A DNA stretch of 62,385 nucleotides from Escherichia phage vB_EcoP_phi345, in sequence record PV189402.1; one strand, 5' to 3'. Positions within the stretch are counted from its first letter, which is position 1; each line of letters begins with the position of its first letter. A program made the position numbers. Shown in pieces: positions 39,001-42,000 of this stretch.

Positions 39001-42000
39001 AGGCGACCGCGTAAACCGTCAGTTCGTGGCAGAACGTCCTGACCAGCTGTGGGTGGCTGATTTTACTTACGTCAGCACATGGCAGGGCTTCGTCTATGTG
39101 GCGTTCATCATTGATGTGTTTTCCGGATGTATCGTGGGGTGGCGAGTCTCATCGTCTATGGAAACGACATTCGTGCTGGATGCACTGGAGCAGGCGTTGT
39201 GGGCCCGTCGGCCGTCCGGCACAGTCCATCACAGTGATAAAGGTTCTCAGTATGTATCACTGGCCTATACGGAGCGACTAAAAGAAGCAAAACTGCTGGC
39301 ATCAACAGGGAGTACAGGTGACTCGTATGACAACGCGATGGCGGAGAGCATCAATGGTCTTTACAAAGCGGAGGTAATACACCGTAAGAGCTGGAAAAAC
39401 CGTGCAGAAGTGGAACTGGCCACACTCACGTGGGTGGACTGGTATAACAATCGACGATTGCTGGGAAGGCTGGGTCATATCCCTCCGGCAGAAGCAGAAA
39501 AAGCTTATTATGCTTCCATCAGAAACGATGATCTGGCAGCCTGAGTTCACAGATAAAACACTCTCCAGGAAAACCGGGGCGGTTCATTTTGCTTGATCTC
39601 AGTTTCTGTATTAATATCCATTTTTTATAAGCGTCGACGGCTTCACGAAACATCTTTTCATCGCCAATAAAAGTGGCGATAGTGAATTTAGTCTGGATAG
39701 CCATAAGTGTTTGATCCATTCTTTGGGACTCCTGGCTGATTAAGTATGTCGATAAGGCGTTTCCATCCGTCACGTAATTTACGGGTGATTCGTTCAAGTA
39801 AAGATTCGGAAGGGCAGCCAGCAACAGGCCACCCTGCAATGGCATATTGCATGGTGTGCTCCTTATTTATACATAACGAAAAACGCCTCGAGTGAAGCGT
39901 TATTGGTATGCGGTAAAGCCGCACTCAGGCGGCCTTGATAGTCATATCATCTGAATTAAATATTCCTGATGTATCGATATCGGTAATTCTTATTCCTTCG
40001 CTACCATCCATTGAAGGCCATCCTTCCTGACCATTTCCATCATTCCAGTCGAACTCACACACAACACCATATGCATTTAAGTCGCTTGAAATTGCTATAA
40101 GCAGAGCATGTTGCGCCAGCATGATTAATACAGCATTTAATACAGAGCCGTGTTTATTGAGTCGGTATTCAGAGTCTGACCAGAAATTATTAATCTGGTG
40201 AAGTTTTTCCTCTGTCATTACGTCATGGTCGATTTCAATTTCTATTGATGCTTTCCAGTCGTAATCAATGATGTATTTATTGATGTTTGACATCTGTTCA
40301 TATCCTCACAGATAAAAAATCGCCCTCACATTGGAGGGCAAAGAAGATTTCCAATAATCAGAACAAGTCGGCTCCTGTTTAGTTACGAGCGACATTGCTC
40401 CGTGTATTCACTCGTTGGAATGAATACACAGTGCTTATTCGTACTAATAAAATACCCAATTTTCTGTTTCTTGGTTGTGTCCAAAGTTATATTCAATATC
40501 TGGTGTTGATGTATCAATATTCTTCATACCATCAACAAGAGTTGATACAACAGCCAAATCTTGTTTGATTCTCATTAAATGGTATTTCTTCCGGCGCAAT
40601 AAACTTTCAATGGCAAGTTTCTTCGTTGGGAATGCAAAAGATCTTTCTGCATTTTTTGCTACTTTCTTAATTGCATATCTATTTCTCCTTTGTTTCCATT
40701 CCTGTAACCACTGATTTGGTGCTGGTTTAAAATTAACAATCCAATGCGCAGGAACCAACCATGCATAATGCTCTGTCTGATGAAAAGCTATATATTGAAG
40801 TGCGAATATTTTTATCCCATCTTCTTCAACTGTCGCCTGGAATCTCCAGAAAACAGGCATTCCATCATGTTCAGTTTCTGATTCAGGAAAAGGTACGCTC
40901 CATGATTTTGTCATATCTCACCTCAAATAAGTGGTTTGCTGCCTAATTTCATTTTCTGGCGACCAACACAAGTCACCTCGCCGTCAGTTGTTTTGATTTC
41001 CGGTAGCCTGCCGCGTAAATGGCTACGTTTGGAAGACATACACCAGTTTCTGGTTGCTTATGTCCAAACTCATTCGCGTACACAATGGCCGCTCGCTCCA
41101 GATTGCGTCTGTATTCTTTCTGTTGCCAGATCACGTCCTGTGCCATGAACTTAATTGGCTTAGCGTCTTCTATGCGCTCAGGCGTTTCGTGAGTACCTTT
41201 AGCCTGAATCTGCGCTCTGCTTAGAGTAGGGCGGTGTAATACTTCTGAACTTATTGCTTCTTCGCGGGCCAGTACGCCGTTAGCTAATGCCTTTGCCTTT
41301 AAACGCTCACGACGACGAGAACGTGAATTGCCTTTGAACTGAGTTCTGCGTGTCATATAGACCTCCTGATGAACTTTGGTGGTGTGGTAGGTGGGAGACC
41401 CATTTCGACCTGTTTCGGCCTACTTCAATTCGGCAATAGTCCCGCAGGCCTCGCCGCTTTACGTGCGACATATTCCCGTCCATGAACCCTTCACCACACC
41501 CCAAAGTTCACTTTGGTTATTGCGCTTTGTCAGCGCCGTAGATTCATATTCGAATCGTTGTATATTCACCGCCCTGGTGAGTAATGCGTCCTGCTGACGA
41601 TGATAATAATGAACCAATAGTTCGACATTATCAAGAACTATTGGTACGAATTTTGGTGATTTATTAACTCTACGAAGTATGATTCTGATATATAAGGAAA
41701 TTTATTTTTGAAAATGTGGCTGATGAAGGTTATGCGGCAGGGATCATAACTGCATGGTTTAGCGAGTTACATCAATAAATACAATTGGTTATGTTTTTTA
41801 GGTGGGCGAACGTGAGGCAAAGAAAACCCGGCGCTGAGGCCGGGCTAGATTTTAAAGTATTTATCTTTTAGAGATGTAGATGTAAAACTTTTCGCCTTTG
41901 AAAATTTTCTGTCATCAGAAGGGCTTATGAACTCATCTTTTTTGTAGGGAACCGCTAATGCTGCATCACGTCTGCGAGGCAGCTTGCTTACTTCCTCGCG

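What the first reader, a model, noticed from the sequence alone, without database searches (positions are those of the whole stretch)
39925..40914. Two AT-rich accessory ORFs between N and cIII in an anti-defence hotspot
In lambda the N-to-cIII interval carries ral, sieB and ea10. Here it carries two unrelated ORFs (156 aa and 122 aa) with AT-rich composition and no motif I can recognise, separated by a - strand terminator (40312-40339) and a 9-bp perfect palindrome GTGTATTCA-N10-TGAATACAC (about 40401-40428). Early, N-dependent expression and the position make them candidates for anti-restriction or superinfection-exclusion functions.
Basis: inference. Interest (0 to 1): 0.55.

Follow-up and report, generated by a model that had tools for sequence, protein, structure and literature searches.

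The report
Known early genes flanking PreS sRNA
The interval is an ordinary, already sequenced piece of a 933W-type Shiga-toxin phage: one uncharacterised early gene (the HK97 gp45 family), the published lambda small RNA PreS with its terminator, and lambda's own ea10 gene. An anti-defence role for the two proteins remains possible but untested.

Summary
The ORFs, AT-richness, terminator and palindrome are all real, but the reading "two ORFs unrelated to lambda's" is half wrong.

- **122-aa ORF (39925-40293, -):** this is lambda ea10 itself, 119/122 residues identical, Pfam DUF2528.
- **156-aa ORF (40444-40914, -):** this is 933W L0079, the same gene as HK97 gp45. It has no Pfam, NCBIfam or PADLOC match.
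- **DNA identity to lambda:** from about 40434 leftwards through ea10, cIII and kil the sequence is about 99% lambda.
- **Terminator and palindrome:** both are lambda features. The terminator is tL2a, the 3' end of the published Hfq-dependent sRNA LPR1/PreS. PreS maps to 40400-40314 (-), 86/87 identical to lambda with an intact seed. In lambda it raises dnaN translation and phage replication.
- **Palindrome as RNA:** it is a 12-bp hairpin ending 1 nt before PreS +1. Phage mEp043 has a hairpin of different sequence at the same place.
- **gp45-like protein:** it belongs to a phage-only family of basic proteins. The AlphaFold model is confident (pLDDT 95.8) and has no fold relative in the PDB.
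- **Ea10:** uniformly acidic, abundant and non-essential in lambda.

The N-cIII interval is a genuine accessory-gene mosaic (ral and sieB in lambda). No positive evidence links either ORF to defence.

Everything here is already deposited or described, so interest is modest.

The parts
40973..41356 (-). N antiterminator gene (933W/HK97 type); upstream flank of the interval
   Evidence: ORF of 127 aa. Pfam N_peptide E 2.1e-15. Annotated N in 933W and HK97.
40444..40914 (-). 156-aa accessory early gene, identical to 933W L0079 and 99.4% identical to HK97 gp45 (phrog_1636). Basic protein (pI 9.1, net +13 over residues 61-120). Function unknown.
   Evidence: ORF preceded by GAGGTGA 5 nt upstream of the ATG. 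phrog_1636 E 2.7e-112. 100% identical to the 933W gene and 99.4% to HK97 gp45. Homologues at 55-99% identity in Enterobacterales. 87 remote relatives. AF2 model pLDDT 95.8. Charge profile.
40430..40443 (.). Mosaic junction. Sequence shared with lambda starts about 40434, some 10 nt after the stop codon (TAG, 40444-40446) of the 156-aa ORF.
   Evidence: Window-lambda DNA alignment. HK97 shares both sides of the junction.
40402..40429 (-).
   Evidence: -15.7 kcal/mol, z -6.5. Identical in lambda and HK97. Replaced by a different 10-bp hairpin at the same position in mEp043.
40314..40400 (-). PreS (LPR1) Hfq-dependent sRNA gene.
   Evidence: 86/87 identical to the lambda sequence defined by cloning and deletion primers P810, P968 and P969 of bioRxiv 10.1101/2024.10.31.621285. 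The only difference is in the terminator loop. The deleted seed stretch is identical. Terminator scan. Fold -28.9 kcal/mol, z -3.7.
39925..40293 (-). ea10 (DUF2528): 122-aa acidic early protein (pI 4.25), 98% identical to lambda Ea10
   Evidence: Annotated ssb/ea10 in 933W and related phages.
39882..39901 (-). Intrinsic terminator between ea10 and cIII. From memory, and from its lambda-identical position, this is probably tL2b. HK97 retains it although it lacks ea10.
   Evidence: z -2.7.
39688..39865 (-). cIII gene (39688-39852) with its RNA thermoregulator (39807-39865); downstream flank of the interval
   Evidence: Pfam Lambda_CIII E 1.5e-30. Rfam Lambda_thermo 88.5 bits.

Best explanation
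The interval is the standard N-to-cIII segment of the early-left (pL) operon of a 933W-type Stx phage. It is built from three known modules.

1. **An accessory early gene of the HK97 gp45 / 933W L0079 family.** It is co-transcribed with N, upstream of the first predicted intrinsic terminator. It encodes a small basic alpha/beta protein. I infer that it binds nucleic acid or a host nucleic-acid-handling factor early in lytic growth. Its function is not shown.
2. **A conserved RNA hairpin followed directly by the PreS (LPR1) sRNA.** The PreS terminator is tL2a. In lambda, PreS binds Hfq, pairs with the dnaN leader, frees its ribosome-binding site and raises beta-clamp synthesis and phage DNA replication. 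Because the sequence and seed are identical, the same is expected here. I infer that the hairpin marks or protects the RNA end created when PreS is cut from the pL transcript.
3. **ea10 (DUF2528).** This is lambda's own abundant, non-essential, strongly acidic early protein. It is reached only by read-through of tL2a, so it is N-dependent. I infer that it binds and titrates a host protein. A DNA-mimic-like anti-nuclease role is one possibility.

The identity of every part is shown. The PreS mechanism is shown in lambda only. The functions of both proteins are inference.
For: **Identity and context**
- The 1.8-kb region is 100% identical to Stx phages P27 and Stx2a_F723 and 99.7% identical to 933W.
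- The 156-aa ORF is 933W L0079 and HK97 gp45.
- Ea10 is 119/122 identical to lambda's protein and matches DUF2528.
- The DNA is about 99% lambda from the hairpin through kil.

**PreS**
- PreS was mapped from the preprint's primers to 40400-40314, 86/87 identical.
- The preprint lists 64 Stx2 phages as PreS carriers, with Stx2a_F403 as representative. That phage is 99.7% identical to this region.
- Hairpin plus PreS is at least 95% identical in 324 of 326 phage records even though the flanking genes differ.
- In 80 IMG/VR loci, gp45 is almost always followed by hairpin plus PreS, while ea10 is optional.
- The hairpin is structurally conserved with a different sequence in mEp043.

**gp45-like protein**
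- It is a real conserved gene, with homologues at 55-99% identity in Enterobacterales and 87 remote relatives.
- The model is confident, pLDDT 95.8.
- 88% of the aligned family members have pI above 8, and K/R-conserved columns cluster in residues 75-117.
- Homologues sit in early or accessory gene clusters in unrelated phages.
- No structure or terminator is predicted between N and the gene.

**Ea10**
- It is abundant and non-essential in lambda.
- The family pI is 4.1-4.8.
- It also occurs in the early regions of Mu-like phages, next to GemA and Mor.
Against: - Nothing here tests the function of either protein. A basic or acidic charge is only suggestive.
- PreS expression, Hfq binding and dnaN regulation have been shown only for lambda, in a preprint.
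- The PreS 5' end is defined from the authors' cloning and deletion primers and a roughly 88-nt Northern band, not from a mapped end. The '1 nt after the hairpin' relation is therefore approximate.
- Rho-dependent termination between N and the 156-aa ORF cannot be excluded.
Confidence: 0.8

Rival explanations
1. One reading: one or both ORFs are counter-defence proteins (anti-restriction or another anti-defence function), or superinfection-exclusion proteins, made early from pL.
For: - They occupy the same mosaic slot as lambda ral (anti-restriction) and sieB (exclusion).
- gp45 lies directly after ral in phi296.
- Both are AT-rich, non-essential accessory genes. gp45 is interrupted by IS629 in phage JLK-2012.
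- Ea10 is small, abundant and very acidic, as known DNA-mimic anti-restriction proteins are (the comparison is from general knowledge).
- Remote gp45 relatives lie near phage DNA methyltransferases in Nafs113 and Aurca01.
- DUF2528 occurs in Mu-like early regions. From general knowledge, those regions hold host-takeover genes.
Against: - No hit to any anti-defence or defence model, to Pfam or NCBIfam, or to solved anti-defence structures.
- No publication links ea10/DUF2528, gp45 or L0079 to defence.
- ral and gp45 co-occur, so gp45 is not simply a substitute for ral.
- A pL gene is repressed in the lysogen, which argues against prophage-expressed exclusion.
Confidence: 0.3
2. The 156-aa ORF is a 'moron': an independently transcribed lysogenic-conversion gene with its own promoter and terminator, expressed from the prophage to benefit the host (for example exclusion of other phages).
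For: - Its GC content is well below its surroundings (0.357 against 0.49).
- It has tight mosaic junctions and moves between positions in the pL operon: after N, after ral, or next to xis-int in Pectobacterium and Brenneria prophages.
- A hairpin and a terminator follow it.
Against: - No sigma-70-like promoter is predicted on the - strand between N and the ORF.
- The gene is always co-oriented with the pL operon.
- The downstream terminator belongs to PreS and is present in lambda, which lacks this gene.
Confidence: 0.1
3. The palindrome is a DNA-level protein-binding site (an operator-like site or a recombination site at the module boundary) rather than an RNA hairpin.
For: - It is a perfect 9-bp inverted repeat sitting within 10 nt of a mosaic junction.
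Against: - mEp043 keeps a hairpin at this position with an entirely different sequence, and HK022 keeps only the inner 6 bp. That fits selection for RNA structure, not for a sequence-specific binding site.
- The stem extends to 12 bp only when a G-U pair is allowed, which makes sense in RNA.
- The element lies inside a transcribed operon immediately 5' of a processed sRNA.
Confidence: 0.05
4. One or both ORFs are spurious open frames in AT-rich spacer DNA.
For: AT-rich sequence yields long chance ORFs less often, not more. There is essentially no support.
Against: - Both have full-length homologues diverged to 44-57% identity with conserved columns.
- Both have Shine-Dalgarno sequences.
- Ea10 protein has been observed in lambda.
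- The gp45-like alignment gives a pLDDT 95.8 model.
Confidence: 0.01

Closest known systems
Lambda ea10 (protein Ea10, Pfam DUF2528; historically mis-annotated 'ssb')
   Same: The 122-aa ORF is 119/122 identical. It occupies the same position between tL2a and the terminator before cIII, and the flanking DNA is about 99% identical.
   Different: Three substitutions only (K5N, P94S, D114N). The function is unknown in lambda too.
HK97 gp45 / 933W L0079 / Stx2-phage-86 orf57 (phrog_1636)
   Same: The 156-aa ORF is 100% identical to the 933W gene and 99.4% identical to HK97 gp45. It sits in the same position directly after N and directly before hairpin plus PreS.
   Different: None of substance. 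HK97 lacks ea10 downstream. No member of the family has been characterised.
Lambda sRNA LPR1/PreS with terminator tL2a (bioRxiv 10.1101/2024.10.31.621285)
   Same: 86/87 nt are identical, including the whole seed. It has the same GC-rich stem-loop plus U-run and the same position upstream of ea10.
   Different: One G-to-A change in the terminator loop. The upstream gene is the gp45-like ORF instead of ral. Expression and targets have not been tested in a Stx phage.
Lambda ral / orf28 / sieB module
   Same: Positional analogue: it occupies the slot between N and the PreS hairpin. Its genes are non-essential and AT-rich, and they are early or accessory.
   Different: No sequence or profile similarity to the 156-aa ORF. 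The two modules can coexist, as in phi296. sieB is on the opposite strand.

Membership tests
Lambda Ea10 / Pfam DUF2528 (PF10800) | Full-length match to the family HMM above the gathering score | tested here: met
   157.6 bits against a cutoff of 22, E 1.5e-46, profile positions 1-104 of 104. phrog_646 E 2.4e-69.
Lambda Ea10 / Pfam DUF2528 (PF10800) | Orthology to lambda ea10: near-identity and conserved position between tL2a and cIII in the pL operon | tested here: met
   119/122 identical. Flanking DNA collinear and about 99% identical to lambda.
HK97 gp45 / 933W L0079 family (phrog_1636) | Full-length match to the family profile and to named members | tested here: met
   phrog_1636 E 2.7e-112, positions 1-156 of 156. 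99.4% identical to HK97 gp45 and 100% to the 933W gene.
PreS (LPR1) sRNA | Sequence identity to lambda PreS including the seed deleted in lpr1-delta-seed | tested here: met
   86/87 identical. The seed stretch (TGTTCTGATTATTGGAA) is identical. The single mismatch is in the terminator loop.
PreS (LPR1) sRNA | Hfq-type 3' end: GC-rich stem-loop followed by a U-run (terminator tL2a) | tested here: met
   8-bp stem with 5 GC pairs, 6-nt loop and a UUUUUU tail.
PreS (LPR1) sRNA | Lytic-cycle expression, Hfq binding and activation of dnaN translation | not testable with these tools
   Shown for lambda only. Requires Northern blots, RIL-seq and reporter assays in a Stx-phage lysogen.
Known anti-restriction / anti-defence protein families (Ral, Ocr, ArdA and others) and defence-system components | Sequence or fold similarity to a characterised member | tested here: not met
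Known anti-restriction / anti-defence protein families | Demonstrated relief of a defence system in vivo | not testable with these tools
   Needs expression and phage-challenge assays. No published test was found.
Moron (autonomous promoter-gene-terminator cassette in a prophage) | Deviant base composition relative to neighbouring genes | tested here: met
   GC 0.357 against 0.492 for N and 0.493 for the window.
Moron (autonomous promoter-gene-terminator cassette in a prophage) | Own promoter active in the lysogen | tested here: inconclusive
   No sigma-70-like site on the - strand upstream of 40914. A consensus scan cannot exclude a weak or activator-dependent promoter.

The most novel reading that the evidence does not exclude
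The gp45-like protein would be the founding, testable member of a phage-wide family (phrog_1636, 13631 and 25384). The family has a previously unseen fold and would act as an immediate-early counter-defence or host-takeover factor. Its conserved basic face would bind a host nucleic acid or a nuclease-type immune sensor. The acidic Ea10 would be a second, independent inhibitor, for example a DNA-mimic-like one. Together with the Ral-containing variants, the N-PreS-cIII interval would then be a true anti-defence island of lambdoid and Stx phages.
Probability: 0.25. Interest if true: 0.6.

Novelty: already known. Interest (0 to 1): 0.3.

Why it matters
Practically, the finding is resolved into parts that are already deposited and partly characterised, so it should not be pursued as a new element.

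Three residual points have some value.

1. PreS, so far studied only in lambda, is present unchanged in 933W-type Shiga-toxin phages. Phage replication drives toxin dose, so a PreS-dnaN link in EHEC is directly testable.
2. The 156-aa gene is carried by about 11% of complete E. coli genomes (598 of 5426) and by model phages HK97, 933W and H-19B. It is still annotated 'hypothetical'. It gives a confident model with no solved structural relative, which makes it a cheap candidate for accessory-gene screens.
3. The hairpin in front of PreS is conserved as a structure. This is a lead on how this intra-operonic sRNA is cut out of the pL transcript.

Tried and rejected
- **Profile searches:** Pfam, NCBIfam and PADLOC scans of both ORFs and of 50 gp45-family members found nothing significant. 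Weak hits such as Tmem26, Cas1_II and AbiEi are chance-level.
- **PDB sequence searches:** profile searches for both families found nothing.
- **First AF2 run:** with only close homologues the model was poor (pLDDT 59.5) and was not used. The deeper alignment gave pLDDT 95.8.
- **Rfam:** it has no PreS family. It returned only the cIII thermoregulator and the IS3-type frameshift pseudoknot.
- **Related loci:** The search for related loci failed with the divergent alignments. Three single remote members returned nothing in viral contigs. The close-family scan returned only 100%-identical copies.
- **False positives:** two long remote 'hits' (P0139, P0153) are low-complexity repeats.
- **A wrong recollection:** I remembered that ea10 had been implicated in the lambda block of host replication initiation (Sergueev 2002). 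The titles and abstracts of the papers that cite that work (not opened) concern the exo-xis region, so I dropped the idea.
- **Other weak features:** a possible SD-sequestering hairpin at the ea10 start is no better than shuffled sequence (z -0.66). The + strand promoter-like site at 40425-40453 is within chance expectation (3 found against 6.6 expected).
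Full report
**Observation**

The window around the finding reads as the early-left (pL) operon of a lambdoid phage on the - strand. The order of features is:

- N (40973-41356)
- a 156-aa ORF (40444-40914)
- a 150-nt spacer
- a 122-aa ORF (39925-40293)
- cIII (39688-39852)
- kil
- an IS element
- gam and bet

Both ORFs have the stated coordinates and plausible Shine-Dalgarno sequences. They are AT-rich, with GC 0.357 and 0.382 against 0.493 for the window. Only 1.5% of equal-sized windows are as GC-poor as the larger ORF.

The - strand terminator is found by the scan: stem 40341-40320 and T-run 40319-40314. The region has 6 such sites against 1.9 expected.

The palindrome is real but one base off the stated position, at 40402-40410 and 40421-40429. 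As RNA it extends to a 12-bp stem with a 4-nt loop, at -15.7 kcal/mol and z = -6.5.

**Identity of the region**

The 1.8 kb from kil to N is 100% identical to Stx phages vB_EcoS_P27 and Stx2a_F723. It is 99.7% identical to 933W, Min27 and phi24B. The window is therefore a 933W-type Shiga-toxin phage.

- **The 122-aa ORF is lambda ea10.** It is 119/122 identical. It matches Pfam DUF2528 at 157.6 bits against a cutoff of 22. It is annotated 'ssb/ea10' in 933W.
- **The 156-aa ORF is 933W L0079, the same gene as HK97 gp45.** It is also in H-19B and in Stx2 phage 86 (orf57). It belongs to phrog_1636, 'unknown function'.

**The spacer is the PreS sRNA locus**

Aligning the window with lambda shows about 99% identity from about 40434 leftwards through the hairpin, the terminator, ea10, the next terminator, cIII and kil. 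The mosaic junction lies about 10 nt after the stop codon of the 156-aa ORF. The palindrome and the terminator are therefore lambda features.

A 2024 preprint (bioRxiv 10.1101/2024.10.31.621285) describes an Hfq-bound sRNA, LPR1, renamed PreS. Its main points are:

- It lies 'between ea10 and ral', and its 3' end is terminator tL2a.
- It appears as bands of about 88 nt and about 68 nt and is expressed only in the lytic cycle.
- It pairs with the dnaN leader, opens the ribosome-binding site, raises DnaN and supports phage DNA replication.
- Seed and full deletions reduce spontaneous phage yield 2- to 4-fold in an Hfq-dependent way.

I reconstructed the lambda PreS sequence from the authors' cloning primer P810 and deletion primers P968-P971. 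It maps to window 40400-40314 (-) with 86/87 identity. The single change is in the terminator loop, and the seed is intact.

The preprint's own table lists 64 Stx2-converting phages as carriers, with Stx2a_F403 as representative. That phage is 99.7% identical to this region. Rfam has no model for PreS.

**The hairpin**

The hairpin ends 1 nt before PreS +1. It was left intact in the authors' full deletion (primer P969).

The 126 nt of hairpin plus PreS are at least 95% identical in 324 of 326 phage records from Escherichia, Shigella and Salmonella phages, although the flanking genes differ.

- mEp043 shares PreS from +1 onwards but carries a different 10-bp hairpin (AUAGCAGAUU-UACG-AGUCUGCUAU) at the same place.
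- HK022 keeps only the inner 6 bp.

This is what selection on an RNA structure looks like, not selection on a DNA-binding site. My inference is that the hairpin defines or protects the RNA ends made when PreS is excised from the pL transcript. It could act as a 3' exonuclease barrier for the upstream mRNA, or as a determinant of the cleavage site. This is untested.

**The interval as a mosaic**

Relative to the conserved PreS island there are two variable slots.

Slot A runs from N to the hairpin and holds different genes in different phages:

| Phage | Slot A content |
|---|---|
| lambda | sieB, orf28, ral |
| SfI | a small ORF, orf28-like, ral |
| SPN9CC | sieB plus a 121-aa ORF |
| mEpX2, mEp043 | three small ORFs |
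| HK97, 933W | gp45 |
| phi296 | ral followed by gp45 |

Slot B runs from tL2a to the next terminator:

- ea10 in lambda, 933W, SfI and mEpX2
- nothing in HK97, where the deletion runs exactly from terminator to terminator
- other genes in SPN9CC and mEp043

In 80 IMG/VR loci with an identical gp45, the hairpin and PreS almost always follow it, while ea10 and the N type vary.

More distant homologues of the 156-aa protein occupy other positions within the same operon. In a metagenomic lambdoid contig the gene lies directly after N. In Pectobacterium and Brenneria prophages it lies next to xis-int.

**The gp45-like protein**

The word-index search found only Enterobacterales homologues, at 55-99% identity. 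An exhaustive profile search found 87 proteins at E of 0.001 or better. Most are 130-155 aa and align over residues 20-140. One of them, P0117, links back to gp45 by tblastn at E 2e-8.

All 50 aligned members hit phrog_1636. 42 of them hit phrog_13631 and 19 hit phrog_25384. None hits Pfam, NCBIfam or PADLOC.

With this deeper alignment, AlphaFold2 gives a confident model (pLDDT 95.8, pTM 0.82):

- a three-stranded sheet (residues 19-55)
- two short helices
- a short strand (83-86)
- a 33-residue helix (98-130)
- an ordered C-terminal tail

The protein is basic (pI 9.1), with net +13 over residues 61-120. Across the alignment, 88% of members have pI above 8. K/R is conserved in ten columns, mostly in residues 75-117, and K87 is invariant. 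Nucleic-acid or phosphate-rich-partner binding is therefore the most economical guess, but it is only a guess.

The gene is dispensable: IS629 interrupts it in phage JLK-2012. It is present in 598 of 5426 complete E. coli genomes and is annotated 'hypothetical protein' in every listed record.

No intrinsic terminator or significant structure lies between N and this gene. It is probably co-transcribed with N before the first terminator.

**Ea10**

Published work describes Ea10 as abundantly produced from pL (PMC3961180). It is non-essential for plaque formation (PMC10695390). Its role is 'not fully understood'.

The family is uniformly acidic, with pI 4.1-4.8. It is not confined to lambdoid phages. 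Diverged members lie in the early regions of Mu-like elements, after the transposase and AAA+ B genes and near GemA and Mor.

This distribution fits a host-directed early function. An acidic, abundant early protein is compatible with a DNA-mimic or decoy role.

**Verdict**

The interval consists of the HK97-gp45-type gene, the published PreS sRNA and its terminator tL2a with a conserved upstream hairpin, and lambda ea10.

The anti-defence interpretation is neither refuted nor supported by positive evidence. I put it at about 0.3 for at least one of the two proteins.

Novelty: already known at the sequence and element level. Interest is modest at 0.3. It rests on an uncharacterised phage-wide protein family with no solved structural relative, and on the unexplored presence of PreS in Shiga-toxin phages.

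Noticed in passing
window 38279-39586: An IS629-type (IS3 family) element of about 1.3 kb is inserted in the 3' end of kil, relative to 933W. It replaces the last few kil codons with IS-derived sequence and separates kil from gam. OrfA is 38331-38657 and OrfB is 38657-39544. The programmed-frameshift pseudoknot matches Rfam ALIL at 38612-38728, 120.9 bits.
   Followed up: partly
L006 1975-1998 (phage mEp043) versus window 40402-40429: The hairpin immediately 5' of PreS is kept as a structure but with a completely different stem sequence in mEp043. HK022 retains only the inner 6 bp. This points to an RNA-level role in PreS biogenesis or in stability of the upstream mRNA. The PreS preprint does not discuss it.
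   Followed up: partly
L002 3076-3165 (HK97) versus window 39900-40320: HK97 lacks ea10 through a deletion that runs exactly from just after the tL2a/PreS terminator to the start of the next terminator. This leaves two terminators back to back.
   Followed up: no
phage JLK-2012 (JQ347801.1) about 9512-9925: In this O55:H7 Stx phage, IS629 interrupts the gp45-like gene near codon 138. The gene is therefore dispensable for a recoverable prophage.
   Followed up: no
L098 4001-4378 and L099 4001-4378: DUF2528 (Ea10) homologues at 44-51% identity sit in the early regions of Mu-like transposable prophages, downstream of the transposase and AAA+ genes and near GemA/Mor or DUF3164. Ea10 is thus a cross-family early phage protein.
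   Followed up: partly
L009 and L010 4001-4477: In Pectobacterium and Brenneria prophages the gp45-like gene lies at the distal end of the early-left operon, directly upstream of xis-int rather than next to N.
   Followed up: no
window 41845-43513: The immunity-region block between cI and N is as AT-rich as the finding (GC 0.35). It contains the 933W stk eukaryotic-type kinase (42012-43058), an overlapping 153-aa ORF annotated RuvC-like in RefSeq (43052-43513) and a 54-aa ORF. It ends in a bidirectional terminator at 41825-41846.
   Followed up: no
window 39807-39865: The cIII translation-initiation region matches the Rfam lambda cIII thermoregulator (88.5 bits). The lambda-type cIII RNA switch is therefore intact here.
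   Followed up: no
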